A stretch of 64,000 nt of DNA, from NCBI GenBank assembly GCA_019058365.1, contig JAHPZE010000005.1, forward strand, positions 96,001 to 160,000, in the 5' to 3' direction. The notes beneath the pieces are model-generated. The model did no database searches. It was not told the origin of the DNA and saw nothing but the letters and a program-made list of their open reading frames with translations. This document shows positions 43,777 through 63,967 of this stretch, one piece after another (position 1 is the stretch's first letter; every line of letters starts with the position of its first letter). This DNA comes from Promethearchaeota archaeon (GTDB lineage Archaea > Asgardarchaeota > Lokiarchaeia > Sigyniarchaeales > SOKP01). Made by a program: the position numbers and the translations under genes.

Positions 43777-43820
43777 AAGAATTTATAAAATGTATTTTTT
43801 AATAGCGATTTAAAATTATT

Positions 43821-44555: not shown

Positions 44556-44593
44556 AATTATACTATTTATTTTATTTCATTAAAAAGAGATTT

Positions 44594-45325
44594 TTAAATT
44601 ATTTGATTCAATAACTTTCTAACTTTCTCAACATCATTAGTAATAATTCCATTAACCCCAAGATTAATCAGCTTCTTTATAGCGGAATCAGAATTCACAG
44701 TCCAAGGAAAAATTTTGAGATTATTATTATGAGCTTTAGCCATAAAATTTTTATTAACAAGTTTAAAGAAAGGGTTAATAGCATAAAACTTATTCTTAAT
44801 TGCTACCCTAATTAATTTTTTCCTTGATATCCAACTTCTTATCCATCCAGTTTTATTAGGTTCCAACGATGCCAATTTAATTCTTGGTTCTAATTTCTTA
44901 ATGTTCAACAAAACATCATGTTTAAATGAACTAATTATCGTTGTTTCGAGACTATCTTCTTCTTTGATAATTTTTATAATTTCTTCAGCGATACCTCTAA
45001 CTTTTACCTCACAATTCAAGCTAATCTCCCCTTTTGCTAGCCTAACTAATTCTCGTAAAGTAGGTATTTTCTCACCATCTCCGCAATCAAGTTGCCTTAA
45101 CTCTTCAAGGGTCATTTCTTTTACTGATCCAAAATGACCTGTTGTTCTGAATGTATTAGCATCGTGCATTATTACGATTTCCCCATCTTTAGATTTATGA
45201 ACATCAAATTCAATACAATCCGCTTTTAATTCTATAGCTTTCTTAAAGGCTCTTAAAGTATTCTCAGGCGCTATACTACTAGCACCTCTATGAGCAATTA
45301 TTAAGACTTTCTTTTCATTATTCAT
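44594..45325 (-). CDS. Glycerophosphodiester phosphodiesterase (canonical motifs)
   Basis: AHRG, PENT, IEFDV, MHD, NCEVK, SSF, PWTVN. Confidence 0.92.
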   Translation of the reverse strand: MNNEKKVLIIAHRGASSIAPENTLRAFKKAIELKADCIEFDVHKSKDGEIVIMHDANTFRTTGHFGSVKEMTLEELRQLDCGDGEKIPTLRELVRLAKGEISLNCEVKVRGIAEEIIKIIKEEDSLETTIISSFKHDVLLNIKKLEPRIKLASLEPNKTGWIRSWISRKKLIRVAIKNKFYAINPFFKLVNKNFMAKAHNNNLKIFPWTVNSDSAIKKLINLGVNGIITNDVEKVRKLLNQII

Positions 45326-47032: not shown

Positions 47033-47764
47033 ATGAATGCTATTGAGAAAGAAAAATTGCGTAATTTCCAAGAATTTATAGGATATAAATTTAATAAAGA
47101 AGCACTTTTAATTGAAGCCCTAACAACTCCAAGGTTAGCAAATGAAATTGGAAAACCTAGTTATGATTTTTTAGAAACATTAGGAGATGCTATAATTAAA
47201 ATTATACTTATTTTACAACTTTATAAGAAGGGAGTTAAAGATTCGGGGGAAATTACAAAAATAAAAGCAACTCTAGAAAGTGATAATGCTCTAAAAAATA
47301 TCGCAAATAAGATAGGTTTAGAAAAATATATTTTTAAGACGGAAAAACAGAGAGTAAAAGGAACTCGTATTTTAGCAGATATTTTTGAAGCATTATGTGG
47401 TGCTATTTTTCTTGATTCTAAATATAATCTGGATTTAGTAGAACAAAAAATGATTAATCCTTTTTATGAAGATTTGAATGTAATCATTCAGACGTCGATA
47501 ATTTCTAGTAAAAATGTATTATTAGAATTTTTACAGGAGAGATTTAAAACAAACATAATTATCGAACTTGAATATGAAAAAAGTGGAGTGGAGCATAATC
47601 CTAACTGGATCGCAAAAAATCCAAGAATTTTAGAACAAGAAAGTCGAGAGGAACTAGTTAAAATACCTGGAAGTCTAAAATCAACAAAGAGTAAATCAAA
47701 AAAAATGTCAGAAAAAGATCTTTATGTAAAAATCCTTAAATTTTTAGAAAAGAAAAAAAAATAA
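47033..47764 (+). CDS. rnc: Ribonuclease III with degenerate dsRBD
   Basis: IGYKF...LLIEALT, signature DFLETLGDA, ADIFEALCGAIFLD (all four catalytic acids present); C-terminal KNVLLEFLQ...SGVEH.P...SKK.SE dsRBD-like segment. Confidence 0.85.
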   Translation: MNAIEKEKLRNFQEFIGYKFNKEALLIEALTTPRLANEIGKPSYDFLETLGDAIIKIILILQLYKKGVKDSGEITKIKATLESDNALKNIANKIGLEKYIFKTEKQRVKGTRILADIFEALCGAIFLDSKYNLDLVEQKMINPFYEDLNVIIQTSIISSKNVLLEFLQERFKTNIIIELEYEKSGVEHNPNWIAKNPRILEQESREELVKIPGSLKSTKSKSKKMSEKDLYVKILKFLEKKKK

Positions 47765-47957: not shown

Positions 47958-49151
47958 ATGAGAGAATTTCAAATGTCTAAATCCCCAGTAATAGAAAAAA
48001 CTCCCCTTATGGAAGAATTTGAAGAAGAAACTGGAAAAGTATCAATTTGGAAGGGGGAACTATCAAAAAATTTTAAAAAGTGGGAAAAAAAAAAGAAACA
48101 AAATGAAATAAAACAAATGAAAGAAGATATTCTTTCTCAGTCTCGTATAGAAAAGAAAAAAATGAAAAAAGAATTCAGAGAGGATCGATTGGCAGGTAAG
48201 AGTTATGAGCATTTAATTGTGGTTGATGGGCTTCATAAGACTTATTTATTAGGTACCACGGCTGTTGCCGCGCTTCGAGGTATTGATTTAACAATAGATA
48301 ACGGAGATTTTGTTGATATTATGGGACCTTCTGGTTCTGGAAAGACAACACTCCTAAACTTGATCGGTGGATTAGATACCCCCACTCGAGGGAAAATCTT
48401 TTTAGAAGGGCGTAATATTTCAATGCTTTCAGATAATGATTTGGCAGAGATAAGACGTGAGAGAATTGGATTTGTTTTTCAGTTCTATAACCTTCTACCA
48501 CAGATGACAGCTATGGAAAATGTTATGGTACCTTTACATTTTTCAGGGAAATTAAGTCGTCGAGGTAAAAGGAAAAAAGCAATGGATCTCTTGAGATTGG
48601 TAGGTTTAGATGAACGAGCACATCATACTCCCTCTGAATTGAGTGGCGGTGAACAGCAGAGAGTAGCGATAGCTCGGGCTTTCGCAAATGATCCTGCAAT
48701 CTGTGTTCTTGATGAACCTACGGGTGATTTGGATTCTAAAACGGGTGTAATGGTTCTAAATCTTCTTAGAGATTTAAACAAAAGAGGTGCTACCTTTGTT
48801 GCGGTAAGCCATGATGCCGCAGTGTCGGAATTTGCGACTAGAGTGTTCCATATGAAAGATGGAAAACTTACTCATGAAGGAAAAATAGGAGGCTTAAAAG
48901 AAACTGAGATTATGCAACTTAAGAGAAGACAAGAAACAGAAATAAATAAAGAGAAATGTAAAAGTAAAATTTTTCAATACCTCTATGCAAATCAAGGTAA
49001 AGCTGAAATTCCAGTTAGTGATATTAAAAGCAGCATTCCAAATTCTATAGTTATGAATTTGCCAGAACACTTTAATGACATTTTACAAGAACTTATTGAA
49101 GAGAATAACTTTTCTGGCAAAATTGAAGGAGAAATTTTGATTTTAAAATAA
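47958..49151 (+). CDS. Type VII (LolD/MacB/FtsE-like) ABC ATPase with N- and C-terminal extensions
   Basis: GPSGSGKT, GFVFQFYNL, LSGGEQQRVAIARA, LDEPTGDLD, VSHD; about 85-aa N-extension and about 70-aa winged-helix-like C-extension. Confidence 0.95.
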   Translation: MREFQMSKSPVIEKTPLMEEFEEETGKVSIWKGELSKNFKKWEKKKKQNEIKQMKEDILSQSRIEKKKMKKEFREDRLAGKSYEHLIVVDGLHKTYLLGTTAVAALRGIDLTIDNGDFVDIMGPSGSGKTTLLNLIGGLDTPTRGKIFLEGRNISMLSDNDLAEIRRERIGFVFQFYNLLPQMTAMENVMVPLHFSGKLSRRGKRKKAMDLLRLVGLDERAHHTPSELSGGEQQRVAIARAFANDPAICVLDEPTGDLDSKTGVMVLNLLRDLNKRGATFVAVSHDAAVSEFATRVFHMKDGKLTHEGKIGGLKETEIMQLKRRQETEINKEKCKSKIFQYLYANQGKAEIPVSDIKSSIPNSIVMNLPEHFNDILQELIEENNFSGKIEGEILILK

Positions 49152-49199: not shown

Positions 49200-52100
49200 A
49201 TGACACAAATAAAGCTAATTTTTAAATATGCATTCCAAGATTTAAGTAAACAAAAGATTAGAACCTTACTAGCAATAATAGGAATGTTAATTTCCATTGG
49301 CTTGTTAACTGTCGTCTTATTCTTATCTGACTCTATTTCTATGGGGTATGCAGATTATCTTACCATTGAAGCAGGTAATCAAGATGCTGTTATCTCTGTA
49401 AGACATTATTACGAAGAACCAAGTAATAGATCATCGTATTTTGACTATGATCCCCTAATTGAGACTATTCAATCTTCAACTAGTATTATAGAGAATTTTA
49501 TCCCGAGAATGGAAATAACGGGATCTGTTAATATTTCCGAAGGTTTCCATACCACAAATCTACTAGATGAAGAAGAATCGTGTATAATATCAGCAATTAA
49601 TTTTTCTTTTGAAAATGATATAAATTTTGGGACATTTGTAAGTCCAGTATTTAATAAATTACTTGATTTAACTGAATTACCTTCAAATCATTGTGCAATC
49701 TATTATGGGTTTAATGATGTTATCAAATATTCTGAAGGTAATACCATTAAAATATTCATGGAATTAACTAATGGAAATACAACAATAAATCGAACAAAAT
49801 CTTTAATAATTGATAAAATCTTTGATTTCAATTTAAAATGGTCTGCTGAGTATCGTAGTAGGAATTTAATTATAGTAGATATTAATACGCTATACCAAAT
49901 TTTTGGTTATGACGAATTTAAGGGTAAATGTAGCGATTTGATATTAACTTTTAAAGAATCTAGTAAACTCTATGATATTAGGAGTATTGAATTAGCTACG
50001 ATAAATGTAAAGAATATTGTTAATGATATTCAAATTGCAATAGGAATTGATGAATATAGCATTGATTTACCTAAATTAAGAGCATTATCATCTGCTGAAT
50101 TTTTAAGTGTATTTATAGTTATAGTGTTTGTGTTTGTTTCAATTGTAGCTATGCTAATTTCCGGTGTTCTCATCAATGGAATATTAAAAACTTCAGTGGA
50201 GGAGCGAATTCGAGAATTTGGGATATTCAGAACGTTAGGTGCGAATAAAAAGTATAATCTTATGATAGTATTGATGCAAGGCTTTTTATTATGCAATTTT
50301 GGGGCAATTTCAGGAATAATAACTGCATTTTTTCTTTCCATATATGTAATAATACCTTTTGCAAATACTGTGGTTTCCGGCAGTATGTTAGGTTTAGGTA
50401 CAATACCTTTCTCTTTCACTTGGTGGTCTGTTATAATATCATATATCATGGGTATTAGTGTGGGGATGATTGTGAGTATCGCTCCTGCTTTAAAAGTGAT
50501 GCGTCTTCAATTGATTGAATCAATTCATCCATATCGCCATGAAGATACATTATATCATCTACAAAAAAAAGCATCAGTAAATTACAAATTAATCTTAGCA
50601 GGATTAATTTTGGCATTTAATGGTATATTTGTGTTTTTTGTTATACCGAGAATTATGGTTGCGAGTGATATGACTCTCTTTGCTGGTACATTGGTTGCAA
50701 TTTTACTTATATTTAATATTGGATTAACTCTTGCTGGATTAGGTTTAATTCCTCTAATATTAAGGTTAATAATTCAATTATTCAGACCAATATCAAGAAG
50801 ATTGCATAATATTATTAAGATTTTTGTTTTTCGATATCAACGTAGAAATTCGAGTACTATCATGATCTTTGCATTGTCTTTCTCTTTTGTTATTTTTACA
50901 TCATCTCTAGTTAATACTTTATCAGCACAAGTTGGTGCTTCAACTAAATTAAGATATGGATCAGACATCTTAATTGAAACTACTGGATGGAAAGAACTCG
51001 AAAATGGATTTGGAGGGGGTGGTTTTGGTTTCATGGCTACTAGTGAGGATTCAGAACAATCCGGTTTAAATTTGTATAGTACTCAAACATATCTTGATTC
51101 TATTAATCCAAATAGAATCATTACAACGGAGTTTGGACAAGAATTATTAGCTATGGATGGCATTGAGAAAGTGTCATCTGTGTTAGCAAGACCTTATCAA
51201 TTAACTCAAATTTATGCTGGAGAGGATAAAGAATTTGTGGCAGAAATTGGGGATTTTGCCGGATTAAGTACGCAAGAGATAACTTTAATAGGAATTGATG
51301 AAGAATATCCTTTCACAGTGAAAAGTGAGTACATAGAAATGACTTCTGGAAATGTAATTACCTCCTTTAACGATCTATTTCATAATAATCAATCGTATAC
51401 CTGCATAATTTCTGAAGCAATAGCTTTAGCAATGTCTTTATTAATTGGTGATAAAATTCGAATTGTAATCCAAAGAGGAGACGAATTAGAAGTGTATCCT
51501 TTCATAATAGCAGGAACCGCGAAAAGTATGCCGGGATTTTCTCGAGAATTTAGTGGATCAAGTACGGGGGCTTCGAATGGAGGGGTGTTAATCTCTCAAG
51601 CAACATATATCGAAATAATGGATATTCCTCCTGTCCCTTATTTGGATAGAATTTTCATTAAACTTAGAGAAGATAAATTATCAGAAGCTCATAATATAGA
51701 GGATTTAATTGATGAATATTATCAAACTGATTATAATTATGAAATATCCAATCTAGCAAGAATGATAGCACAACAAGAATCCGCATTTTCTGTATTAGAT
51801 ACTCTTTTTACTCTCATAGCTCTTACTACAGTATTTATTTGTATTTTTGGATTGCTATCTTCATCTTATTCAACTATTATTGAAAGGAAGAAAGAAATCG
51901 GTATTGTTCGAACTTTAGGGTTAAAAGGTAGAGATATTAATCGCTTATTTATAATTGAATCCTTAATAATTATGCTTAGTAGTGGAACTATAGGAATAAT
52001 TATAGGATGGGTAACTAGTTGGTTGGTTTCTTGGAATTTGTTGGGTACATTAGTGGGGATGCCAAATGTATTGTATGTTCCGTGGTTTAATATAATACTG

Positions 52101-52202
52101 ATCTATTTACTTTCTGTAATCATGATTTTTTTCGGAATGATAATATTGTTAAGAAAAGCCAGAAAACAGAAAATAGTTGAGATTTATAGAGAAACAATTT
52201 AA
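49200..52202 (+). CDS. FtsX/MacB-like ABC permease (internally duplicated)
   Basis: KIRTLLAIIG, EERIREFGIFRTLGA and IERKKEIGIVRTLG; two large extracytoplasmic domains. Confidence 0.92.
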   Translation: MTQIKLIFKYAFQDLSKQKIRTLLAIIGMLISIGLLTVVLFLSDSISMGYADYLTIEAGNQDAVISVRHYYEEPSNRSSYFDYDPLIETIQSSTSIIENFIPRMEITGSVNISEGFHTTNLLDEEESCIISAINFSFENDINFGTFVSPVFNKLLDLTELPSNHCAIYYGFNDVIKYSEGNTIKIFMELTNGNTTINRTKSLIIDKIFDFNLKWSAEYRSRNLIIVDINTLYQIFGYDEFKGKCSDLILTFKESSKLYDIRSIELATINVKNIVNDIQIAIGIDEYSIDLPKLRALSSAEFLSVFIVIVFVFVSIVAMLISGVLINGILKTSVEERIREFGIFRTLGANKKYNLMIVLMQGFLLCNFGAISGIITAFFLSIYVIIPFANTVVSGSMLGLGTIPFSFTWWSVIISYIMGISVGMIVSIAPALKVMRLQLIESIHPYRHEDTLYHLQKKASVNYKLILAGLILAFNGIFVFFVIPRIMVASDMTLFAGTLVAILLIFNIGLTLAGLGLIPLILRLIIQLFRPISRRLHNIIKIFVFRYQRRNSSTIMIFALSFSFVIFTSSLVNTLSAQVGASTKLRYGSDILIETTGWKELENGFGGGGFGFMATSEDSEQSGLNLYSTQTYLDSINPNRIITTEFGQELLAMDGIEKVSSVLARPYQLTQIYAGEDKEFVAEIGDFAGLSTQEITLIGIDEEYPFTVKSEYIEMTSGNVITSFNDLFHNNQSYTCIISEAIALAMSLLIGDKIRIVIQRGDELEVYPFIIAGTAKSMPGFSREFSGSSTGASNGGVLISQATYIEIMDIPPVPYLDRIFIKLREDKLSEAHNIEDLIDEYYQTDYNYEISNLARMIAQQESAFSVLDTLFTLIALTTVFICIFGLLSSSYSTIIERKKEIGIVRTLGLKGRDINRLFIIESLIIMLSSGTIGIIIGWVTSWLVSWNLLGTLVGMPNVLYVPWFNIILIYLLSVIMIFFGMIILLRKARKQKIVEIYRETI

Positions 52203-52214
52203 GGAGATAGAGAA

Positions 52215-55200
52215 ATTAAATTAAAAAATTTGATTATGATTTTTGTGTTATTTAATATGATTTTTCTTACACCTATAGTTTCAATTATAAATATAGATAA
52301 TAAAAATGTATTTACAGAACAAGATTATGTATCACCGTTTAATGAAGCTTATTTGAAATCTTCTGATATTGCTGGATCAGATCTTTATGCCGAAAAAATA
52401 AATGCATTTGTAGCGGGTAATAAATCAATAATAAAACAGTCACTTTTCACAAATGATACAAATATACTTTCAGAATTTGATTCAAATGATCCCGCATTTT
52501 ATAAATGCAATGTAATTATTAGTGCTTCAAATGGAATTAATCCAGAAATTTTTCCAACTATACTAACTGAGAGTGATATCTCTTCACAGTTTGCTGTTGG
52601 TTTCAATAATTTTGTAGGATTTCTCTATTATGATGAAGATTTGGATAAAGAGGATGCTTGTTTGAGAGCAGAAAGAGCGCTTGAGATAATTCGAAGAAAA
52701 TTTATGATTGATCTTATTATGATTAATGTAACAGCACCTAATTTCTTCCCATTTATTGGATCTTATCCCAATTGGAATTGTTTTTACGAGGAACTCACTA
52801 AAAATTTTCCTATGGATGGGTATTGGAAAGCATTGGATATTAATCGCTTAACTAACCAAGAATATCTAGAAAATTATCATGTTTCCTCAACATTCATGCT
52901 TCTAAATTCACTAGATTTTTTTGAAGGGGATTTTAATATTGGAACAGATCAAGTTAATTTTAATACTGAATCTTTAGATCTATCTTTCTTAGAAAGTTTG
53001 GAAATAGAAAATCTAGTTGAACAATTAGGTTCAGCTTTAGAAAATTTTGGAGACTTATTCAACGCTACAATTTCAGAAGATTCATTAGAACAATTCATTA
53101 ATATTTTTAGCTCATTTACCCTTAAAAATAACTCACATTATACAAGTATATCAATTCAATATGAAGGTTTAAATAAAGGTATCCAAAAGATTGGAAAAAA
53201 TCAATATAAGTTCAATTTATGGGACGCAATGGGTTATCAAGGAAGTCCATTAGCCCCTAGTAAAAAGATATATATTGCATTAACGGGAGCTTTAATGAGT
53301 GAAATTAAAATAAATATTTTATGTACAGATGTCATTGATATAACTCCAAAATATTTTGATTTTTATGAGTATCTTCTAGAACAAATAGGGTTACTTTTTT
53401 ATTATGCTGGTATTGAATTTGATGCACAAAGCCTTGAGAATTACTCCTTTGAACTATTATGGTTGAATAAAGAGGGAATTAAACAATCATATGTTAAACC
53501 TATAAATAGGGAAAATCCTTCAGACATTGTAAATATGCTGCAACAATTAGGTTTTCAAGGATTTTCCTATATTCCCACTGGTATTGTGAATCCAATAGAA
53601 AGTTTGATTATAACTTATAATATTTCTAATTCAGAACCAAATTTATTACTCAAAAAAGAATTAATTGGAGGAAATGCGTCATATGGTGCGTTTCGAGATT
53701 TTTCATATAATGTTTCTGCTGAAAATATCGGAAGTAAAACTGCGTGGGGTGTACCTACCCCAATTGCTTTAGAACTTGATTACTTCTTCCAAATAATAAG
53801 TCCATTTTTTTGGGAAAATCTTAAAAATGATATGTGGAATGTTATCAAAATTGAATATCCAAATCAATACGAATCTTTAGAGGATTTTTTCAATTTTGAT
53901 GAAGATCCTCGTATTTTTTACTTTGATTCATTTGGAGTAGGTACTTACGATAATTATTATCCTGATCTTCTTAATATAACAAATTTATGGCCTTATAATG
54001 AAGATGTAGGTGAGATTATTGATATAGTCTATAGCGAAAGCCCATTTTATTTTACATTGCCTCCTGATACTGTTAAAGAATTTACTATGAATGAAAATAG
54101 TATTTGGAATGATGATAATTGGAGGTTAGATCCCGGAGAGATAATATCATACCATATTGATAATTATTCGATTTCAAATTTAGATTCTTTTACTCCTTTT
54201 TATAGGAATAACTTTTCTATTGATACATCTCCAGAAACCCCAGAAATTATCTCAGGTACACAGATTGCGGGAACAATTCCAGAAATGGCTTTAACAGCCG
54301 ATAACTATAGTTGGATAATTGAATCAGATGAAAAATTTTTAGATCAAAAAATTGAGATTGATTTTATTTTTAAAAATAATACAATTATTGATTTTGTTAA
54401 TAACACTTTAGAAAATGTTTCTATAATAATAGATTTTAATGTGTCTGAAAATATTGGTTCTATTAATTTTGAAATTTTTAATTTTGATACTGAGGAGTTT
54501 CAAGATTTGAGTCCATATTTAGATTCAATTATAAATAATACTCGGACTTTTTCAATTGTTAGCTTTAACGAAAGTCTTGATTGGCTTTTTTATCCATTAG
54601 ATAATAAAAATTATACAGCTGTAATTAAAATCATCTGCACTGATCCAGAACCGTTTAACATTTCAATCAATAATCTGGATATTGAATTTTCCACAAGAGA
54701 CATTAATTTTAATGAAGATTCAGGAGCTAGAGTTATATATAGCTCTTCAACGGGATATGTCCAATATGAAAGACAATCTAATTCAATTCCTCTTAGTACA
54801 TATAACGCAGCTTCAATAATAGCTTCATCATATCTAACCAAATACAATGCAAAGCCAGGAGAATTAAATACATATACTCTTACTTTTAAGAATATTGGTT
54901 CTGCTATTGCTAAAAATGTAAGTATTTCTTTGCTAACTCCAGGTATAATGGAAAATTTGAATAATTTTACACTTAAAAATAGTAATTTAACTTATTATCT
55001 TTCAAAACTAGCACCTTCTGAAGAAAAAACCGTATATTTTACGTTCTATGTGCCTAATTCGATTTCTATTAGTGAAGTATCCATTTTTTATAATAATCCA
55101 ATGAATATTGAAGGGGAAAATTCTTCCAGAATTGAAAGTTTATCTAATGAGGTTTACATTTCTGCTCCAGTTAACTATGAAGATTTATTTCCCTTTGTCA

Positions 55201-56147
55201 GAGCTATTGAAATATATTATGGAGATAATGATATTGCTCCTGTTGTAGGGGATATATTTAATCTTACTGTAAATATTAAAAATGCAGGACCAATTGGATT
55301 TAATATATCAGATCTTAAAATAATCATGAATGATCAATTTGGTGATTTAAAAAAAATAGAGAATAACACAATAGATTTAATAAATATTGCCTATAATGAA
55401 ACCTCTTCTTTTACTATTACTTTAAAAAAGAGTGGGTGGAGAGGATATTATTATCCTCCTATTAACTTCATTGAAAGTTCAGAAGGTAGGACACTACAGA
55501 TTTATAGTTCTTTATCCAAGATATTAGGAAAAATCAGTTTTTCAATTGTTAAAAATGTAAGTAAAGATCAAATTGAGATTGGAGAAATCATAACTGTGAA
55601 TATCGAAGTGCGAAATACAGGGACTATTAGCATTGAGAATATAATTATTAATGATATGATTAGTTATTCACAGTCAGATTTCTCATTATCAGAAGGAAAA
55701 TTAGTTAATCTAATTATTTCATTGGATCCAGGTGAGAAAGTTACTATTAATTATTCTCTAAAGGCAAAAAGGCAAGCTCTTGTCAGTTTAAACCCAGCAT
55801 TTATAAAATATTATTACCTACATGAACTTGAAGACACTTCTAATAAAATCTTAGTTAAGATTATTACTCCTAAATTTAGACAATATTCATATATTACTTT
55901 ACCAATTTTAATTGTTTTCTTAATTTTGATGCTATATATCTGGCAAATTAAAAAATATAAAAAGAAAAGAATCGAATTTCAGAGATCTGAGAGTTCTATT
56001 TTTGAACTCAGCTCAAGAGAAACAATCCTCAAAAAAGAATATACTTTAAGACAAAGATTACATATTTTATCCGACAAATCTAAAGAAAAAACATTTGATA
56101 TTAAAGTAAATGAACCTATTGACAAATCACTATATAAAAATGAATAA
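52215..56147 (+). CDS. Large membrane-anchored surface protein with C-terminal DUF11/CARDB/COG1361-like Ig domains
   Basis: Signal peptide (probable ATT start giving MKLKNLIMIFVLF; ORF track TTG 52230), Ig units YTLTFKNIG, NLTVNIKNAG, ITVNIEVRNTG...LDPGE, TM ITLPILIVFLILMLYIW, basic cytoplasmic tail. Confidence 0.75.
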   Translation: MKLKNLIMIFVLFNMIFLTPIVSIINIDNKNVFTEQDYVSPFNEAYLKSSDIAGSDLYAEKINAFVAGNKSIIKQSLFTNDTNILSEFDSNDPAFYKCNVIISASNGINPEIFPTILTESDISSQFAVGFNNFVGFLYYDEDLDKEDACLRAERALEIIRRKFMIDLIMINVTAPNFFPFIGSYPNWNCFYEELTKNFPMDGYWKALDINRLTNQEYLENYHVSSTFMLLNSLDFFEGDFNIGTDQVNFNTESLDLSFLESLEIENLVEQLGSALENFGDLFNATISEDSLEQFINIFSSFTLKNNSHYTSISIQYEGLNKGIQKIGKNQYKFNLWDAMGYQGSPLAPSKKIYIALTGALMSEIKINILCTDVIDITPKYFDFYEYLLEQIGLLFYYAGIEFDAQSLENYSFELLWLNKEGIKQSYVKPINRENPSDIVNMLQQLGFQGFSYIPTGIVNPIESLIITYNISNSEPNLLLKKELIGGNASYGAFRDFSYNVSAENIGSKTAWGVPTPIALELDYFFQIISPFFWENLKNDMWNVIKIEYPNQYESLEDFFNFDEDPRIFYFDSFGVGTYDNYYPDLLNITNLWPYNEDVGEIIDIVYSESPFYFTLPPDTVKEFTMNENSIWNDDNWRLDPGEIISYHIDNYSISNLDSFTPFYRNNFSIDTSPETPEIISGTQIAGTIPEMALTADNYSWIIESDEKFLDQKIEIDFIFKNNTIIDFVNNTLENVSIIIDFNVSENIGSINFEIFNFDTEEFQDLSPYLDSIINNTRTFSIVSFNESLDWLFYPLDNKNYTAVIKIICTDPEPFNISINNLDIEFSTRDINFNEDSGARVIYSSSTGYVQYERQSNSIPLSTYNAASIIASSYLTKYNAKPGELNTYTLTFKNIGSAIAKNVSISLLTPGIMENLNNFTLKNSNLTYYLSKLAPSEEKTVYFTFYVPNSISISEVSIFYNNPMNIEGENSSRIESLSNEVYISAPVNYEDLFPFVRAIEIYYGDNDIAPVVGDIFNLTVNIKNAGPIGFNISDLKIIMNDQFGDLKKIENNTIDLINIAYNETSSFTITLKKSGWRGYYYPPINFIESSEGRTLQIYSSLSKILGKISFSIVKNVSKDQIEIGEIITVNIEVRNTGTISIENIIINDMISYSQSDFSLSEGKLVNLIISLDPGEKVTINYSLKAKRQALVSLNPAFIKYYYLHELEDTSNKILVKIITPKFRQYSYITLPILIVFLILMLYIWQIKKYKKKRIEFQRSESSIFELSSRETILKKEYTLRQRLHILSDKSKEKTFDIKVNEPIDKSLYKNE

Positions 56148-56159
56148 TAGGGATATAAA

Positions 56160-59100
56160 ATGAGAAGAAAACAAACATATTGCATTCTAATATTGTTAAT
56201 TCTTTCAATGTCAATATCTGGTTTATTTTTTAATGAAATAAATTCAAAAGAGAGCTCAATCGATTTATCAGAAAATTTGAATGATGAATCTAATCCAATA
56301 GTCTCAAATAATTATCAAAAGAATATTATTGTTTTTTTCAATTCACCATCTTATAGTGATACAGTAAAGGATCGTTTTGAGTTCTATGGTGGTACAATAA
56401 AAAAAGAATGGAATAATCAATTCGACTCGATTTCAGGATTTGCTGGTTATATGCCTCTTGAAATAAATCTAATTGGGTTTCAAAATGAGTTTCCTGAAGC
56501 TAAAATAGAAAATGATGAGATTTTGGAGGCTCAAATGAATTATGCATCTGTTCAATCAGGAGCTATTAATACTACATGGTATTTGAATGGCTTAAAAGGT
56601 AATACTAATTCTTCCATAGCAGTGTTGGATACTGGAATTAACCCTAATCATGATTTCTTGAGAGGTGTTATTGTTGGTTGGGAAAATTTTGTTGACATAC
56701 AACCGATATCAGATGATAATGGCCATGGAACTTTTATCTCATCTGTTATTGCTGGGACTGGTAAGGATAAGTATGATTCAAATTATCCTTCAACAATCAA
56801 AATTAAGGGGAATTATTCTCACATAGAATTATTTGATGAATATTCAGTTTCAAAAAATTATACTCTAAAAATAATTTCATTTAATGCATCAAAAGTAGGT
56901 TCAAATATTATAATTAATTCATCATGGAATTTGGAAGATGGTGGAATAGATAACTTCTGGGTTGAATTATATTATGATAATACGCTTGTTAATTATTCTC
57001 ATAATGAAATTCAAGATACCAATTATACAATAAACCATCCACTTACATTAGATAATATAGGTGTTTATGATATATATATAAAATACCATAAATTGCTTCA
57101 AGCTAAGCCAATTTTCTCATTTAATTCAAAAATTTCTTATTTTCCTGAAGTATATACCGAAAATAGAAATCATTTTACAGGTATCGCAAATGCTACTAAA
57201 ATTGTCGCTTATAAAATTTTAAATCAATCTGGAATGGGATGCACTTCTGATTTAATATCCGCATTCGCAAGTGTTATACAAAACAGAAGTAAATATCATA
57301 TAGTAAGTGTTTGTTTAAGTGTTGGCACTTTAGGAGAAGATATAGAAGCAGTAAATTCTGTAATAAATGAAGTAATAGAGAAGGGTATCTTAGTGGTAAT
57401 TGCAGCTGGAAATACAGGCATAGAAATCTCAGATTCACTGAATAAATTAGCTGAAAACAAAAACGCTATTGTTGTTGGTGCTACAAATGATAAAGATCAA
57501 GTTACCTCTTACAGTAGTATGGGAAAAGAAATCGATAGTATCATTAAACCTGATATTGTTGCTCCTGGTGGTAGCAAGATACCTAATCATCGTTCAGTAA
57601 TTGCTGCTGATAAAGAAATAGATAAAGCTACATCTTCTTATGGAACTTCAATTGCTACAGCTATAGTCTCTGCTTCGATTAATCTTTTGATAGAAGCAAG
57701 ATGGGATACATGGAATCAATGGAATAATCTAAATTTAACAGAATGGGTTAAATACATAAAGGCATTTCTCTTAATGACTGCTTCAGAAACTAACCTTGAA
57801 AGAGAGGACGACCCGGCTACCACGATTGATGAAAGTTCCTACTCTCCATCTTTATCTCTTGCTCCTTTGACAAGTGGTTTAAAAGATATTCATGAAGGTT
57901 ATGGTAGATTAAACATTCAAGCTGCCATTGATGCTCTAACAAAAATTATTAAGGTAAATAATTCAATTAATGGAAATTTATTAAGTTCACAAGAAGATCC
58001 TTTAGGAACACATGTGTTTGCTCGACAAGTTGAGCTGATTGAGGATGTCCAATATAATTTTAGTTTATCAACAGCAGATTCACATGCTAATTTTAATATG
58101 TTTCTGTTTTCAAATGAATCAAATCAGTATGGAGAACCGATTTTATTAGGGTCTTCGAGAAAATGGTATAGTAATTTTGATAACTTCTATTTTATTCCAA
58201 AGAATAATCAAACCAATTGCGTAATCGTTGTTAAAGCAATTGAGGGAAACAGTGATTTTACCTTGAATATATCTATTGTAGAAAATTATTTTACACCAGA
58301 ATTGAAAATACCCGAAATAAATTATTTGGGAGGTTCTAAAAATACAACTGTAATGAGTCTCCAAGAATTAATGGGAAATGAACCTAAAAAGAACTATAGT
58401 ATTGATAGCTATAGGTTTTATATTGAATATTATGATAATGATACTTCCAATGTTCCTCCACAAGAAGTTTATGTCTCCATTATAGAAACTTCTGAAAACT
58501 ATACTTTAACTCAATACTACCCTACTGATAACAATTATACTGATGGAGCCTTATTTGTAAGTGATTATGTTCAATTTTCTAAACCAAGAATATATCAATA
58601 TTTTTTCGTTGCTAGCGATGGTAAATTTAAAACGCTCTATCCAGAAACAGGTTGCCTTAACATAACAATTGAGTTTCCTACGGATAGTATCCAATTCCCG
58701 CATCAATATAGTTTTAATGAAGGAATTGGTAATTGGAGCTATACAGGTACTGGATGGGAATTACTTAACCAAAGCAATGATATTGATAATAGATCTAGGA
58801 TATATGAGAATTCATGGAATTCTTTATATTTTGGAATATACCATAATTATCCAAGGAACTATACATATCAACCCATTAACCTGATTGAAGATCCCTTCCC
58901 AAATGGTTCTTTAATAAGCCCTTTATTTAACTTAACAAATATTAATGAGAACACTACAAATCCGTATGCTAAATTTGGATTAAGAACAAGTATAAATGCT
59001 GGAGACTTTATTTATTTACAGATCAATCTAAATTGGACTGGTTGGATAACTTTAAAAACATATACTAACGTAGAGGATGAATGGTTTTTGGAAGAAATAA

Positions 59101-60959
59101 ATTTAACTCAATATATTGGAAATTTTATTCAATTTAGGTTCGAATCTAATCTGGATGATACGTCTGATTCAAGAAATTATAAAGGATTTATTATAGATTA
59201 TTTTGCTATTGAAAATTATACTAATAGAAATTCACCATCAATATTTTTCAATCCATATACGGATATTTCCTCAACTCAAGATTCAAAATATCAGAAGTAT
59301 ACATTTTCATGTGAATATTTTGATTTGGATAATAATTATCCCGATTTTATATATTTAGAGATGAGTGATACAAATTACACTATGTATAATATTTTTGGTG
59401 ATTGGAATGCTAGCTCTAATATTTTGGGAGATTATGGTATATATTTTATAAAATCCTTAACATTGGAAGATATCTCAAATCAATCATTTAGGTTCCATGT
59501 TTCAGATGGATTTAATATAATTACGACTTCATGGTATAATAAAAATAATTCTCTTTTTGAATTCATTAATCCAAATCCTTTACAATTTAAGGTCTTAATG
59601 GATAACAAGTACATAGGATACAGTTTTTCAAATATAGATCTATCTGATTACTATGTGTCTGGTACTCCACCTCCAAAAGAAACAACGGCATGGTTTAGAG
59701 GAGATAATAGTTGGCATCCAATAATTCGATATGGAAATCCTCTGCTTTATGGAGGGATTGGCCAGAGTTTTGGGGGTTCTGAGCAAGGATATGGCTCTAA
59801 TTGGGATATAAATTTAATTACTCATCCACTCCATTTGGAGAGTGAATATAAGGTTTACTTAGAATTTGATTATGAAATTTCATTACAGAATGAATATTAT
59901 CAACCTGAAGATCAACTAGATAAATGTAATATATCATTATCAAAAGATTTTGGTAAAACTTGGATCGTGTTAAAAGAATTTACATATGATAGTGAAGACC
60001 TTATTGGTAGTAGTAAAATTGATATTTCCCAATATTCTGATGAAGATATAATGATAATGTTCACATTACATTCAAATGATAATGTAATTGGCTTAGGTTA
60101 TGGATGGTTATTATCAAATATCTATATAGGGTACGATAAATCAACAGATTTTATAGCTCCAGAAATTAAAATTATAAATCCAAAATCTGATAGTACAATT
60201 AAATCATTAATTATAATAGAAGCAAATATTTCTGATAATGTTAGGTTAGATGAATCAAGAATTTATATATATCTTAATGGTAAGAGTATTGACAGAAATA
60301 AACTCACATTTAATAGTACTACTCATAATTTAAAGTTTAATTGGGACACCAAGAAATATAATGATGGAACATATGAAATTAAAGTAGTAGCTTATGATGT
60401 AGAAGGGAATATTGGAGAAGAAATCATAGTAGTTAAAGTCAATAATATGAAGTGGTGGAGTACATGGAGTCCATACATTATCATAATTGCGTCTGTTATT
60501 GTTATTGGAATTATCATTTATATTATCTCAGAAAAAAAGGGTAAACTTTGGATTGGTAGAATAAAAGACAGTCGTGCTGAAAAAATAAGAATAAAAGATA
60601 TTGATAAAGATCAAGTAATAGAACGGATAGAATTAATTGAACATGAAGTAGAACTAGCAAGACCTTTAACATTGTACTGTAAATCATGTAAATCTTGGTT
60701 CTTTTCATCGAAATTTGATATAATATGCCCAGTTTGTGAACATGATCAAATTTACGCAGCATATTTATGTGAGAACTGCAAAAAATGGTATTTCAAGGAT
60801 GAACCCAGCGAAAATTATTATTGCAAAAATAAAACATGTGAAGGTGTGAGGTTAATTAGGCGGAAAAAAGAAGAAATTCAAGAACTTTTAGCTAAAGAGG
60901 GAAAAGTCCTTAAAAAGTTTAAGAGTAAGGAGAAAAAATTTAGTATTTTAGATGTTTAA
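56160..60959 (+). CDS. Membrane-anchored S8 (subtilase) serine protease with cytoplasmic double zinc ribbon
   Basis: Signal peptide, I9-like prodomain, VLDTG (D 56628), NGHGT (H 56724), AAGN, GTSIA (S 57648), MAM/adhesin-like and Ig domains, TM near 60474-60530, CKSC/CPVC/CENC/CKNKTC tail. Confidence 0.88.
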   Translation: MRRKQTYCILILLILSMSISGLFFNEINSKESSIDLSENLNDESNPIVSNNYQKNIIVFFNSPSYSDTVKDRFEFYGGTIKKEWNNQFDSISGFAGYMPLEINLIGFQNEFPEAKIENDEILEAQMNYASVQSGAINTTWYLNGLKGNTNSSIAVLDTGINPNHDFLRGVIVGWENFVDIQPISDDNGHGTFISSVIAGTGKDKYDSNYPSTIKIKGNYSHIELFDEYSVSKNYTLKIISFNASKVGSNIIINSSWNLEDGGIDNFWVELYYDNTLVNYSHNEIQDTNYTINHPLTLDNIGVYDIYIKYHKLLQAKPIFSFNSKISYFPEVYTENRNHFTGIANATKIVAYKILNQSGMGCTSDLISAFASVIQNRSKYHIVSVCLSVGTLGEDIEAVNSVINEVIEKGILVVIAAGNTGIEISDSLNKLAENKNAIVVGATNDKDQVTSYSSMGKEIDSIIKPDIVAPGGSKIPNHRSVIAADKEIDKATSSYGTSIATAIVSASINLLIEARWDTWNQWNNLNLTEWVKYIKAFLLMTASETNLEREDDPATTIDESSYSPSLSLAPLTSGLKDIHEGYGRLNIQAAIDALTKIIKVNNSINGNLLSSQEDPLGTHVFARQVELIEDVQYNFSLSTADSHANFNMFLFSNESNQYGEPILLGSSRKWYSNFDNFYFIPKNNQTNCVIVVKAIEGNSDFTLNISIVENYFTPELKIPEINYLGGSKNTTVMSLQELMGNEPKKNYSIDSYRFYIEYYDNDTSNVPPQEVYVSIIETSENYTLTQYYPTDNNYTDGALFVSDYVQFSKPRIYQYFFVASDGKFKTLYPETGCLNITIEFPTDSIQFPHQYSFNEGIGNWSYTGTGWELLNQSNDIDNRSRIYENSWNSLYFGIYHNYPRNYTYQPINLIEDPFPNGSLISPLFNLTNINENTTNPYAKFGLRTSINAGDFIYLQINLNWTGWITLKTYTNVEDEWFLEEINLTQYIGNFIQFRFESNLDDTSDSRNYKGFIIDYFAIENYTNRNSPSIFFNPYTDISSTQDSKYQKYTFSCEYFDLDNNYPDFIYLEMSDTNYTMYNIFGDWNASSNILGDYGIYFIKSLTLEDISNQSFRFHVSDGFNIITTSWYNKNNSLFEFINPNPLQFKVLMDNKYIGYSFSNIDLSDYYVSGTPPPKETTAWFRGDNSWHPIIRYGNPLLYGGIGQSFGGSEQGYGSNWDINLITHPLHLESEYKVYLEFDYEISLQNEYYQPEDQLDKCNISLSKDFGKTWIVLKEFTYDSEDLIGSSKIDISQYSDEDIMIMFTLHSNDNVIGLGYGWLLSNIYIGYDKSTDFIAPEIKIINPKSDSTIKSLIIIEANISDNVRLDESRIYIYLNGKSIDRNKLTFNSTTHNLKFNWDTKKYNDGTYEIKVVAYDVEGNIGEEIIVVKVNNMKWWSTWSPYIIIIASVIVIGIIIYIISEKKGKLWIGRIKDSRAEKIRIKDIDKDQVIERIELIEHEVELARPLTLYCKSCKSWFFSSKFDIICPVCEHDQIYAAYLCENCKKWYFKDEPSENYYCKNKTCEGVRLIRRKKEEIQELLAKEGKVLKKFKSKEKKFSILDV

Positions 60960-60991: not shown

Positions 60992-63967
60992 ATGGATATA
61001 AGAAATTTTCTATATAGGTTAAGAAAACGAATAAATCTACAATTTCTCAAACATTCTTGGCTTGATCTCAAGCGAGATAAAACTAAAGTTATATTCGGGA
61101 TAAGTGGTATCGCAATTTCATTATTTTTATTGACTGTTATTGGAATGTTAAATGATACAGTGAATTATAATTATCTTTTATATGTTACTTCAACAACAGG
61201 AAAATCTGATATTATGATTACACGTACAATTCAGACCGATTTAACGTTTGATCCTTTCTATGATGAAGACATTATAAATAATGAATTAAAGGATATTGAG
61301 GGCGTTGATGAACTATTTCCCCGAATTATGATGTTAGTAACATGTACTTCAGAAAATATTAACACAAGCGGTACCTTACAATTTTATGGTCTTGATTTTA
61401 TAAAGGAAGCTGAAAATGGTAACCTGGGAGATTTATTTATAGTTGATGATGAAGGAAAAGAAACCAATGAAGTTTATGATGATGAACCAGATGATGGTGA
61501 ATGTGTAATATTATTAAATGTAGCAGAGATCCTTAATGTTACCAGGGGCGATATAATACACTTAGAATATCAAAATTATGAATTAAATTTAACTGTTGCT
61601 GAAATTTGTATTCAAAATCTTAGATTTATGCAATTCGAAACTTCTTTAATTCTTGTTAATTTACAACAAGCTCAAGAATTTTTGCAAAGAGAAAATCAAA
61701 TAAATTTTATAGTCGGAACAATTAAAAATCCTAAAATTGTCTATGATGCTAGTGATTTAACGTTAACAACAAGAAGACTTCGAATAATCGGTACAAGGGT
61801 ACAAGAAAGGTTGGATCTAAACGAATTTTCCATAAGTTTACCAAAATTAGACGAACTTGAAAGTGGTCAATTTATGCTAATGATGGTAACAATAATATTT
61901 TGGTTTATCATAATTCTTTCAATGCTTATAACAGGTATTTTAATAAATAGCATACTTTCTACTTCGGCTGAAGAGCGCGTGCGTGAATTTGGAATTGTTC
62001 GAGTGGTTGGGAGTAAAAAAATATATCCTATGAAAATGGTTTTATTTGAAGGGGTTATGTTAGGGGTGTTTGGATCGATTATCGGAATGATACTTGGATT
62101 TGCATTGATGAGACCTATAGCACAATCCATATTTCCTATGTATCACTTTCAATTTGAGTTTGCTGACGTAGAATGGGTCATTCAACCTGATACACTCATT
62201 TTAACCTTTTCAATAGGTATATTAGTGTCCTTAGGAGTAGCTTTAATACCTGCTCTTAGAACTGCAAGGGTTGATCTAATTAAATCTATTACTCCTTTTC
62301 AAACTAAAGAAGAAGGTTGGGAAATTAAAAAAGAAGGGAGTATGAATGTTAAAAGTTTTCTTGCGGGAATTTCGATCGCTACTATTGGGATGATAGTCTT
62401 TGTCTTACTACCAAATATCTTTGTCACTGGTGATTATATGTTAACAAATGGACTTTTTATCGGTTTACTTGCTGCTATAGTAATCGGGTTAGTATTTGCT
62501 TCAGTTGGAATAATACCACTAATTCAGAGAATTTTTTTAGGAGTAATTTCACCGGCTATAAAAAAGTATAGTAGTATCATTGGCATTTCCTTAAAGCGTT
62601 ATAGAAGACGTAATACTAGTACTGTTGTTATGTTTGCTATTAGTTTTTCATTTATTTTTTTCCTTACAAGCGTTACTAAAATGCAATCAGCTAATACAGC
62701 ACTAAATTTAAAATTTCAATACGGGTCAGATTTAGTTTTAATGAATCAAGAATTATATAGTCCTGAGAGTGCTCTTACTCTTGAAATGGCTGATGAATTA
62801 AAAGAATTAGCGGGAGTGGATAAATTAGCGATTTCACTTCATAATACATTCGATCTTCAAGCCACACTAGCAGCGATGTTTGAAGTTAGTGAAGGACAAG
62901 TAGGTTTTTCGGGTGGATCATCAGAAGAAATGATGATGGGTATGTTTCAATTCTATACAACTCAAGAAGAGATAAAATTCAAAACTACAGCAGGAGATAT
63001 AATGGATTTTGATGTCGTGGATGCTGGATTTATAGGTATTAATGAAGATTTTGTTGATTTAATTGATAAGAAATTATTAATATGGAAAAGTACTGGAAGT
63101 AGTACTTCATATTCTTTTAATGAATTATTTAATTATAATAATACATGTATTATAGCAAAATCTATTGCGAGTAGACTCGGTATCCAGGATGTAGGAGAAT
63201 ATGTACGAATAACGTTCTATGATCCAAAAATAGAAGATCATCCTGGGAATGTTACTCTATTTAGGGTTGTAGGAATCTCGGGAGGAATTCCTGGATTTTA
63301 TAATTTCCGAACTAATGAGATGTCAGCTAATGGAGGAGGTGTAATGGTCTCATTAGACAATTATATACGCCTAATGAAAATAAAGAATCCTGGAGAGAGT
63401 AATATGATTTTAGATAAAGTATTCATAAATTTGATTGATAATACAGAGGAAAATATTGAAGAAACTAAAGATGATATTCGTATAATGTATCAAGATAAAG
63501 ATATACTTATTGATGATGCAATTTCTAAAATAAACTTCATGGAATCGATGACTGAAAGACAGAGTTTTTTGATGGAGTTGATTCTGATGTTTACGATAAT
63601 AATAAGCATTTTTGGGTTAGTTAGTAGCATGTATGCAATTATATTGGAGAGAAAGTTTGAAATTGGAATCCTTCGGTCAATGGGTATGAAAGTTAGAAAT
63701 GTTAGAAATATGTTTTTAATTGAAAGTATGACTATTTTGCTCGCCGCAGGAATTATGGGGACCATTATTGGATCATATAGTGCATATCTCCTTCAAACAA
63801 CTATAAGCTTAATGACAGAGATGCCGGTGATCTTCACAATTCCTATGGATACATTACTCAGAGTTTTTATTTTATCAATCTCTTTTGCATTTCTAGGAAC
63901 TTATGTGATCTTAATCAAATATTTCTATAAGAAAACCATAATGGACATATTCCGCCAAACATTCTAA
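60992..63967 (+). CDS. FtsX/MacB-like ABC permease (second paralog)
   Basis: DLKRDKTK, EERVREFGIVRVVGS, RRRNTST, QYGSD, LERKFEIGILRSMG; colinear with 49200..52202. Confidence 0.92.
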   Translation: MDIRNFLYRLRKRINLQFLKHSWLDLKRDKTKVIFGISGIAISLFLLTVIGMLNDTVNYNYLLYVTSTTGKSDIMITRTIQTDLTFDPFYDEDIINNELKDIEGVDELFPRIMMLVTCTSENINTSGTLQFYGLDFIKEAENGNLGDLFIVDDEGKETNEVYDDEPDDGECVILLNVAEILNVTRGDIIHLEYQNYELNLTVAEICIQNLRFMQFETSLILVNLQQAQEFLQRENQINFIVGTIKNPKIVYDASDLTLTTRRLRIIGTRVQERLDLNEFSISLPKLDELESGQFMLMMVTIIFWFIIILSMLITGILINSILSTSAEERVREFGIVRVVGSKKIYPMKMVLFEGVMLGVFGSIIGMILGFALMRPIAQSIFPMYHFQFEFADVEWVIQPDTLILTFSIGILVSLGVALIPALRTARVDLIKSITPFQTKEEGWEIKKEGSMNVKSFLAGISIATIGMIVFVLLPNIFVTGDYMLTNGLFIGLLAAIVIGLVFASVGIIPLIQRIFLGVISPAIKKYSSIIGISLKRYRRRNTSTVVMFAISFSFIFFLTSVTKMQSANTALNLKFQYGSDLVLMNQELYSPESALTLEMADELKELAGVDKLAISLHNTFDLQATLAAMFEVSEGQVGFSGGSSEEMMMGMFQFYTTQEEIKFKTTAGDIMDFDVVDAGFIGINEDFVDLIDKKLLIWKSTGSSTSYSFNELFNYNNTCIIAKSIASRLGIQDVGEYVRITFYDPKIEDHPGNVTLFRVVGISGGIPGFYNFRTNEMSANGGGVMVSLDNYIRLMKIKNPGESNMILDKVFINLIDNTEENIEETKDDIRIMYQDKDILIDDAISKINFMESMTERQSFLMELILMFTIIISIFGLVSSMYAIILERKFEIGILRSMGMKVRNVRNMFLIESMTILLAAGIMGTIIGSYSAYLLQTTISLMTEMPVIFTIPMDTLLRVFILSISFAFLGTYVILIKYFYKKTIMDIFRQTF

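What the first reader, a model, noticed from the sequence alone, without database searches (positions are those of the whole stretch)
56160..60959. Receptor-like subtilase: split catalytic domain outside, duplicated zinc ribbons inside
Seen: the D/H/N/S catalytic set is intact. About 135 aa of beta-rich sequence (about 56763-57170) is inserted between the His helix (HGT...IAGTG) and the GIANATKIVAYKIL strand, which normally follows within a few residues. The Ser motif is GTSIATA rather than GTSMAxP. After the single TM there is a cytoplasmic tail of about 140 aa with two similar ribbons (LYCKSCKSWF...CPVC and YLCENCKKWYF...CKNKTC, 60678-60839). Inference: the insert may gate the active site, and the Zn tail may link proteolysis to cytoplasmic partners, a topology reminiscent of eukaryotic membrane-bound convertases such as furin or site-1 protease.
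Basis: partly seen in the sequence, partly recalled or inferred. Interest (0 to 1): 0.7.

Follow-up and report, generated by a model that had tools for sequence, protein, structure and literature searches.

The report
Membrane protease of Asgard ABC cassette
This is a large surface-anchored protein-cutting enzyme of Lokiarchaea; its inserted domain and its inside zinc fingers are real but also occur in other proteins, and what stands out is that it almost always sits inside one five-gene cluster with an ATP-driven membrane motor, which it probably serves as a detachable enzyme subunit.

Summary
Observation confirmed. The 1599-aa ORF has an invariant D157/H189/N418/S497 set, a 134-aa insert after the His helix, one TM and an inside tail with eight conserved Cys. 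The reading is only partly supported. The insert is a PPC/collagen-binding-domain-like jelly roll. It occupies the same loop in free-standing subtilases of other Asgard groups, Bathyarchaeia, Planctomycetes and Armatimonadota (109 of 115 measured), and it persists in catalytically dead orthologues, so gating is unlikely. TM plus zinc-ribbon tails end 8 proteins of this genome. Nothing links the protein specially to furin or site-1 protease; Tk-SP is closest. The gene is fourth in a five-gene cassette: MacB/LolD-like ATPase, permease, DUF11 surface protein, subtilase, permease. The order holds in all 35 informative loci across one Lokiarchaeal order, down to 28% identity. One lineage keeps a dead enzyme; one genome has cleanly dropped the gene. 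Best reading: the accessory hydrolase subunit of a type VII ABC envelope machine, like YbbAP-TesA. A co-fold gives weak support for the tail binding the ATPase. The scan found this cassette earlier in other genomes; no paper describing it was found.

The parts
56160..60959 (+). Membrane-anchored S8A subtilase, 1599 aa (P0001)
   Evidence: (PF00082 E 4.7e-36)
56160..56240 (+). Signal peptide (aa 1-27)
   Evidence: hydropathy
56313..56534 (+). I9-like prodomain (aa ~52-125); shortened to 19-35 aa in the dead clade
   Evidence: (model aligns with pro-subtilisin 3whi and 3afg from model residue 22-25)
56535..56765 (+). Catalytic domain, first part, with Asp157 and His189
56766..57167 (+). 134-aa inserted 8-stranded jelly roll (PPC/collagen-binding-domain-like) in the loop equivalent to subtilisin BPN' ~75-81
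   Evidence: (GOLD 5azx Z 10.1, rmsd 2.5, 97 aligned)
57168..57947 (+). Catalytic domain, second part, with oxyanion Asn418 and Ser497 (GTSIATA; Ile/Val at S+1 and Ala at S+4 in all 120 near homologues)
57948..58289 (+). Post-catalytic PPC/CBD-like jelly roll
   Evidence: 1nqd Z 10.8, 5sv5 Z 10.7
58290..60149 (+). Stalk: tandem duplication of an Ig-like plus MAM/reelin-like pair (aa 711-1330)
   Evidence: (hhalign 97.7% and 96.4% between copies)
60150..60455 (+). Bacterial Ig domain (Big_7)
   Evidence: E 1.1e-10
60471..60530 (+). Single transmembrane helix, basic residues following
60531..60956 (+). Cytoplasmic tail: long helix then double zinc ribbon (Cys 60678-60737 and 60768-60839)
47958..49151 (+). 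Cassette gene 1: LolD/MacB-like ABC ATPase, catalytic motifs invariant, C-terminal winged-helix-like extension
49200..52202 (+). Cassette gene 2: type VII (FtsX/MacB) permease, two FtsX halves, 10 predicted TM
52230..56147 (+). Cassette gene 3: 1305-aa single-pass surface protein with DUF11/CARDB/TRAP-beta-like Ig stalk and an unassigned head
60992..63967 (+). Cassette gene 5: second, paralogous type VII permease, 10 predicted TM

Best explanation
The protein is the accessory hydrolase subunit of a type VII (MacB/LolCDE/FtsEX/YbbAP-type) ABC envelope machine of one Lokiarchaeal order. Shown here: it is a Tk-SP-like subtilase with a prodomain, anchored by one TM, and co-inherited in fixed order with an intact ATPase, two permeases and a giant surface protein. 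Inferred: after self-removal of the prodomain, the protease head, raised on an Ig/MAM stalk, cuts a narrow set of surface or membrane-anchored proteins (maturation or shedding) presented or exposed by the ATP-driven permeases. The inserted jelly roll is an inherited structural or exosite module, as in CspB, not a gate. The inside double zinc ribbon is a protein-binding clamp that holds the subunit to the cassette's own cytoplasmic parts, most plausibly the ATPase, not a signalling output. The core machine can run without catalysis or without this gene. My odds: active S8 with a structural jelly roll ~0.85; works with the ABC ~0.7; the whole mechanism as stated ~0.45.
For: Cassette order holds in all 35 loci that show a neighbour, 23 of them with all five genes, including orthologues at 28-30% identity such as Ca. 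Harpocratesius repetitus. Gene gaps are 12-48 bp. The gene is single copy, found in 55/68 genomes of the family and 7/7 of the sister family, with no orthologue found outside the order in 301 genomes; the partner gene gives the same family counts. Cassette subtilases form one clade (97/85) with their own Ser motif (I/V at S+1, A at S+4), against M..P in 115 of 117 free-standing relatives. Type VII ABCs are defined by partner proteins, including hydrolases (PMC12646458). A ~130-aa jellyroll insertion stabilises CspB and aids its autoprocessing (PMC3567191). Co-fold of the tail with an ATPase dimer: weak support, score 0.55 against best control 0.02, runs agree in at least 86% of contacts, partner pLDDT at least 71. 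The mark was reached by 58 of 80 solved and 2 of 110 mismatched pairs, but at 0.60 or under by only 7 of 80 solved and by both mismatches.
Against: No substrate, activity, expression or physical complex is shown; gene order in related genomes is not independent evidence. The dead clade and the clean loss in G168 show that proteolysis is not needed for the cassette's core job. Known type VII hydrolase partners are small soluble or periplasmic proteins, not 1600-aa type I membrane proteins. The catalytic N-lobe was modelled with low confidence, so the insert's position relative to the cleft rests on sequence mapping and general knowledge.
Confidence: 0.45

Rival explanations
1. Scaffold or adhesin first: the protein is mainly a structural or binding subunit of the cassette. 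Its catalytic activity serves only self-maturation (as PCSK9 or a prodomain-locked CspB) or is incidental.
For: One clade (L019, L029, P0139, P0132, P0145; support 100/99) has lost Asp, His, the oxyanion Asn and most of the prodomain, yet keeps the insert, stalk, TM, zinc tail (where the sequence is complete) and cassette position. The dead domain is as conserved against P0001 (41%) as active distant orthologues (42-49%). The clade-wide Met-to-Ile and Pro-to-Ala changes beside the nucleophile could lower turnover (general knowledge, untested).
Against: All four catalytic residues are invariant in 120 of 120 near homologues and in all other distant clades. Loss occurred once on the tree.
Confidence: 0.25
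2. Feeding protease: a cell-bound enzyme that digests environmental protein for a peptide-fermenting archaeon. The jelly rolls and MAM/Ig modules bind substrate, and the ABC neighbours handle products or protect the membrane.
For: Closest solved relative is the broad degradative Tk-SP. PPC/CBD-like domains are substrate-binding in collagenases. Lokiarchaeota appear in a study of protein catabolism in sediments (PMC9123169, seen in the listing only).
Against: The genome has other free-standing subtilases with canonical motifs for that job. Type VII ABCs typically do not import substrates. A feeding enzyme would not be retained dead or need a conserved zinc tail.
Confidence: 0.13
3. One reading: a receptor-like protease whose insert gates the active site and whose zinc tail passes signals to or from the cytoplasm, a forerunner or analogue of furin or site-1 protease.
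For: Type I topology is real and the tail Cys are invariant; the zinc region is as conserved as the catalytic domain among near homologues (0.79 vs 0.79). One orthologue has doubled the tail module (P0134). BceAB-type systems couple type VII ABCs to signalling.
Against: The insert is shared with free-standing enzymes and kept in dead ones. TM plus zinc-ribbon tails are a recurring module here (8 ORFs, including a subtilase without the insert). No signalling domain is present in the tail. About 700 aa of Ig/MAM stalk separate the head from the TM. No P domain or kexin motifs were found.
Confidence: 0.1
4. Anchor-swapping transamidase: the ABC extracts a lipid or glycolipid, the subtilase forms an acyl-enzyme with a surface protein's C-terminus and transfers it to the lipid, with the partner protein as scaffold (a GPI-transamidase-like logic).
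For: LolCDE and YbbAP extract lipid-like substrates. The Ala at S+4 recalls the engineered subtiligase change (memory, a lead only). Earlier scan notes predict a PIG-T-like head for the partner (unchecked here by structure).
Against: A profile of the partner head finds no PIG-T or Gpi16 match by sequence (inconclusive for fold). GPI transamidase uses a cysteine-protease fold, not S8 (general knowledge). The cassette survives dead or absent subtilase.
Confidence: 0.07

Closest known systems
Tk-SP, Thermococcus kodakarensis subtilase (PDB 3afg, 9ues)
   Same: Best sequence match (E 4e-29) and best Foldseek match (E 3e-13); prodomain, S8A core and C-terminal jelly roll.
   Different: Tk-SP has 3 residues where this has 134, a canonical Met after the Ser, and no stalk, TM or tail; it is a free degradative enzyme.
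CspB/CspA/CspC of clostridia (PDB 4i0w, 6mw4; PMC3567191)
   Same: A ~130-aa jellyroll interrupts the subtilase domain and stabilises it; the family includes pseudoproteases.
   Different: CspB numbering (His183, Ser252, Asn287, Ser494) puts its insert between the oxyanion Asn and the Ser, the PA site; here it follows the His helix. Csp proteins are soluble spore proteins.
YbbAP-TesA of E. coli (PMC12646458), and FtsEX with its hydrolase partners
   Same: Type VII ABC with a 10-TM permease and a co-encoded extracytoplasmic hydrolase.
   Different: Here there are two paralogous 10-TM permeases, a giant second partner, and a membrane-anchored protease with a cytoplasmic zinc tail. The YbbP model scores far below its cut-off (16.8 vs 999 bits).
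Free-standing insert-bearing S8 subfamily (uncharacterised; G000:C29/L037, L039, P0146-P0264)
   Same: Insert of about 115-145 aa in the same loop, and a similar post-catalytic domain. L039 is 31% identical over 695 aa, and its insert matches the cassette insert profile (E 4.4e-5).
   Different: Canonical M..P motif, no Ig/MAM duplication, mostly no zinc tail; those whose neighbours were seen (L037, L039, L043) are not in the cassette.
Furin/kexin and site-1 protease
   Same: Type I membrane subtilases with a beta domain after the catalytic domain; shared S8 fold (8uw8 Z 13.1, 4omc Z 10.7).
   Different: No closer than bacterial subtilisins (3whi Z 16.1); no P-domain hit, no kexin motifs; their tails are not zinc ribbons (general knowledge).

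Membership tests
S8A subtilisins | Asp-His-Ser order with oxyanion Asn; PF00082 above cut-off | tested here: met
   125 bits vs 21.8; 120/120
S8A subtilisins | Canonical G-T-S-M-A-x-P nucleophile motif | tested here: not met
   I/V at S+1 and A at S+4 in 120/120; M..P in 115/117 relatives
S8A subtilisins | Proteolytic activity and prodomain autoprocessing | not testable with these tools
   needs an assay
PA-domain subtilases | PA domain inserted between oxyanion Asn and catalytic Ser | tested here: not met
   Asn418-Ser497 spacing is 79 aa; no PA hit in the protein or in 52 inserts
PPC / collagen-binding domain (PF04151) | Pfam PPC score above cut-off | tested here: not met
   0/52 cassette inserts; 1/56 related inserts at E 0.01
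PPC / collagen-binding domain (PF04151) | 8-stranded jelly-roll fold and remote profile likeness | tested here: met
   (GOLD Z 9-10; tandem CBD 5iku Z 11.2, 203 aligned, rmsd 13.3); the related-insert profile's best PDB hit is 5iku, E 3.6e-4. The link between the two insert sets is modest (E 0.002-0.04; E 4.4e-5 to L039)
Csp proteases | Jellyroll inserted between oxyanion Asn and Ser | tested here: not met
Kexin/furin convertases (S8B) | P domain (PF01483) and kexin-type His and Ser motifs | tested here: not met
   no PF01483 hit; motifs HGTFI and GTSIATA; no kexin among the best 60 sequence hits
Double zinc ribbon (DZR) | Four Cys pairs folding as two ribbons | tested here: inconclusive
   8 Cys invariant; Zn_ribbon_6 hits 61/65 members at E up to 1, best E 9.3e-5, and the query scores below cut-off; best fold match PolD DP2 zinc region, Z 5.5, rmsd 2.8, 60 aligned; metal binding untested
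Type VII ABC system | LolD/MacB-like ATPase with intact Walker A/B, signature and His switch | tested here: met
Type VII ABC system | FtsX/MacB-fold permeases | tested here: met
Type VII ABC system | Identity with a named system (LolCDE, MacB, FtsEX, YbbAP) by curated cut-off | tested here: not met
   all NCBIfam equivalog scores below cut-off
Type VII ABC-hydrolase complex | Physical complex of hydrolase and transporter; mechanotransmission | tested here: inconclusive
   weak co-fold support for tail with ATPase only (0.55 vs control 0.02; see the counts under Best explanation)
GPI transamidase-like complex | PIG-T-like scaffold in the partner protein | tested here: inconclusive

The most novel reading that the evidence does not exclude
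Lokiarchaea have an undescribed ATP-powered surface-protein processing machine. A heterodimeric type VII ABC drives a membrane-spanning subtilase that is clamped to the ATPase inside the cell by a double zinc ribbon, and the protease matures, sheds or re-anchors surface proteins together with a giant scaffold partner. It would be a protease-coupled mechanotransmission system, testable in cultured Asgard archaea.
Probability: 0.3. Interest if true: 0.8.

Novelty: new variant of a known kind. Interest (0 to 1): 0.55.

Why it matters
How Asgard archaea build and remodel their unusual cell surface is an open question. A single-copy cassette kept in order across a whole order, down to 28% identity, is a strong candidate piece of that machinery. 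I found no description of a type VII ABC system paired with a protease or tied to a partner through a cytoplasmic tail. Natural dead and deleted versions give ready comparisons. Separately, the work outlines an apparently undescribed S8 subfamily with a jelly roll in the loop after the His helix, spread over archaea and bacteria. The features first flagged (insert, zinc tail, convertase likeness) are each less special than claimed.

Tried and rejected
Pfam and PDB sequence searches with the cassette insert: nothing significant. Its profile against 1.84 billion representatives returned only family members plus a few low-complexity chance hits, so its wider relatives were found only through the paralogue. 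Insert against the protein's own post-catalytic domain: no profile similarity (E 0.41), so a recent internal duplication is rejected; they share only the fold class. Tail: no usable Atlas hit, no Foldseek match at E up to 0.001, only middling VIA matches; this does not show a new fold. PIG-T likeness of the partner: not seen by sequence, inconclusive. Promoter scan: bacterial consensus, at chance level. Ten paper searches found no description of the cassette or of this insertion site; the library lacks most subscription papers. The tree has too few insert-free rows to show that all insert-bearing enzymes share one origin.
Full report
Observation. The ORF at 56160-60959 encodes 1599 aa. Against Tk-SP, the closest solved protein, the alignment breaks at residue 202 and resumes at 337, where Tk-SP skips only 3 residues. 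Against subtilisin BPN' it resumes at residue 81. The insert therefore replaces the loop at the far end of the His helix, which in BPN' is the calcium loop 75-81 (general knowledge). One TM follows a long stalk. The eight tail cysteines are conserved in essentially every full-length homologue, and basic residues follow the TM in 113 of 113. The tail is inside.

The insert. AlphaFold models it mostly at pLDDT 71-93 as an eight-stranded beta sandwich with the same strand count as the domain after the catalytic core. Structure comparison gives GOLD-type jelly rolls for the insert (5azx Z 10.1, rmsd 2.5, 97 aligned) and collagenase PPC/collagen-binding domains for the later domain. It is not unique to this protein. 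A free-standing paralogue in the same genome (contig C29) has a 125-aa insert at the same point. Of its measurable homologues, 109 of 115 have a His-to-GxA distance over 90 aa, nearly all 126-157. They include named Heimdallarchaeota, Hodarchaeales, Thorarchaeota, Bathyarchaeia, Armatimonadota and Planctomycetes proteins, and one sits among porin and RND genes. The profile of those inserts finds the ColG collagen-binding domain as best PDB hit (E 3.6e-4). Sequence links between the cassette insert and the wider set are modest but reach E 4.4e-5 for a close free-standing relative, L039. The insert is the fastest-changing ectodomain module and survives in dead orthologues. The published precedent, the ~130-aa jellyroll of CspB, stabilises the enzyme and helps autoprocessing (PMC3567191), though it sits at a different site. 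A structural or exosite role is more likely than a gate. The low-confidence catalytic N-lobe in my model means the geometry was not measured.

The tail. It is modelled as a long helix followed by two ribbons (mean pLDDT 83); the best match is the zinc region of PolD DP2 at a middling Z of 5.5. Ending a membrane protein with a zinc ribbon is a recurring habit in this genome: 8 of 2197 ORFs, among them a second subtilase without the insert. Similar double ribbons end unrelated proteins in another family of the class (L021, L022). The tail is nonetheless well conserved, so it has a partner.

The context. The gene is fourth of five co-oriented genes with gaps of 12-48 bp: a LolD/MacB-like ATPase, a ten-helix FtsX-type permease, a 1305-aa single-pass DUF11/CARDB protein, the subtilase, and a second permease. 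This order held in all 35 loci that showed a neighbour, 23 with all five genes, including Ca. Harpocratesius repetitus, where the subtilase is only 30% identical. Tail, insert and partner gene each occur once in most genomes of two sister families (55/68 and 7/7 for the tail). No orthologue was found outside that order among 301 genomes, apart from weak module-level hits. Some near-complete genomes lack the cassette. These genomes are kin, so the counts show long retention, not independent events.

Natural variants. Cassette subtilases form a clade (97/85) marked by Ile/Val and Ala beside the nucleophile, where free-standing relatives keep Met and Pro. One nested clade (100/99) has lost Asp, His, the oxyanion Asn and most of the prodomain but keeps everything else in place. 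In genome G168 the partner gene abuts the second permease with no subtilase between them. The ABC plus the giant partner is therefore the core, and the subtilase is an accessory subunit that has a non-catalytic role as well.

Mechanism. Type VII ABCs do mechanical work outside the membrane through partner proteins, including hydrolases such as TesA (PMC12646458). I infer that this subtilase is such a partner and cuts a limited set of surface substrates presented by the machine. A co-fold of the tail with the ATPase dimer gave weak support: 0.55 against a best control of 0.02, runs agreeing in at least 86% of contacts, partner pLDDT at least 71. The mark was reached by 58 of 80 solved and 2 of 110 mismatched pairs, but scores of 0.60 or under by only 7 of 80 solved and by both mismatches. 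It raises my odds modestly. No substrate, activity or expression was shown.

Comparison and verdict. It is an S8A subtilase closest to Tk-SP. It is not a PA-domain enzyme, a Csp or a convertase; site-1 protease and furin score no better than bacterial subtilisins. As a system it works like a type VII ABC-hydrolase pair but matches no named one. I found no paper on the cassette or on this insertion site. Earlier notes of this scan describe the same cassette and the dead clade in other genomes. I had found the cassette and the dead orthologues before reading them, took the YbbAP-TesA paper from them, and could not confirm their PIG-T lead. Verdict: a new variant of a known kind, interest 0.55, carried by the cassette rather than by the insert or tail alone.

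Noticed in passing
window 48900-49151 (ATPase C-terminus); L017-L041: The cassette ATPase ends in a conserved ~80-aa winged-helix/PCI-like extension (weak hits F-93_WHD E 0.001, PCI E 0.22). In most of the window's family it also has an ~85-aa charged N-terminal extension. Either could be the docking site for the zinc tail.
   Followed up: partly
L017 553-2061, L018, L019, L029, L045 72-1658: In the sister family a ~500-530-aa small-GTPase-like gene (Gtr1_RagA hit in L045) lies directly upstream of the cassette on the same strand; in the window's family an RNase III-like gene (named from motifs only; window 47033-47764) usually does.
   Followed up: no
L046 3817-11835 (G168:C431): Cassette without the subtilase: the DUF11 partner gene is followed directly by the second permease.
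   Followed up: yes
L037 2284-5136 (G000:C29) and L039 4149-6620: Free-standing subtilases with the same-site insert and canonical Ser motif; L039 is the closest non-cassette relative found (31% over 695 aa). They point to an apparently undescribed archaeal-bacterial S8 subfamily.
   Followed up: yes
L038 (G000:C7:34998-39056): A ~1330-aa membrane subtilase without the insert but with a single C-terminal zinc ribbon.
   Followed up: partly
L040 10001-15064 (P0134): Cassette subtilase whose tail carries two copies of the double zinc ribbon.
   Followed up: partly
L021 1418-2911 (-); L022 4550-6628: A similar double ribbon ends an Ig-repeat membrane protein and a vWA-like protein (named from motifs) in another family of the class.
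   Followed up: partly
L011 9644-13871: The subtilase is split into 1044- and 402-aa frames; assembly error or real break not determined.
   Followed up: no
window 43054-45325 (-): Three tandem ~240-aa paralogues with glycerophosphodiester phosphodiesterase-like N-terminal motifs (read by eye).
   Followed up: no
window 30196-33393 (+): A 1065-aa single-pass surface protein with about eight tandem Ig-like repeats (read by eye).
   Followed up: no
window 49200-52202 and 60992-63967: PMC7997004 reports ten-helix MK-D1 and Heimdall permeases resembling the eukaryotic ABC3 family (TC 3.A.1.207); whether these are the cassette permeases was not established.
   Followed up: partly
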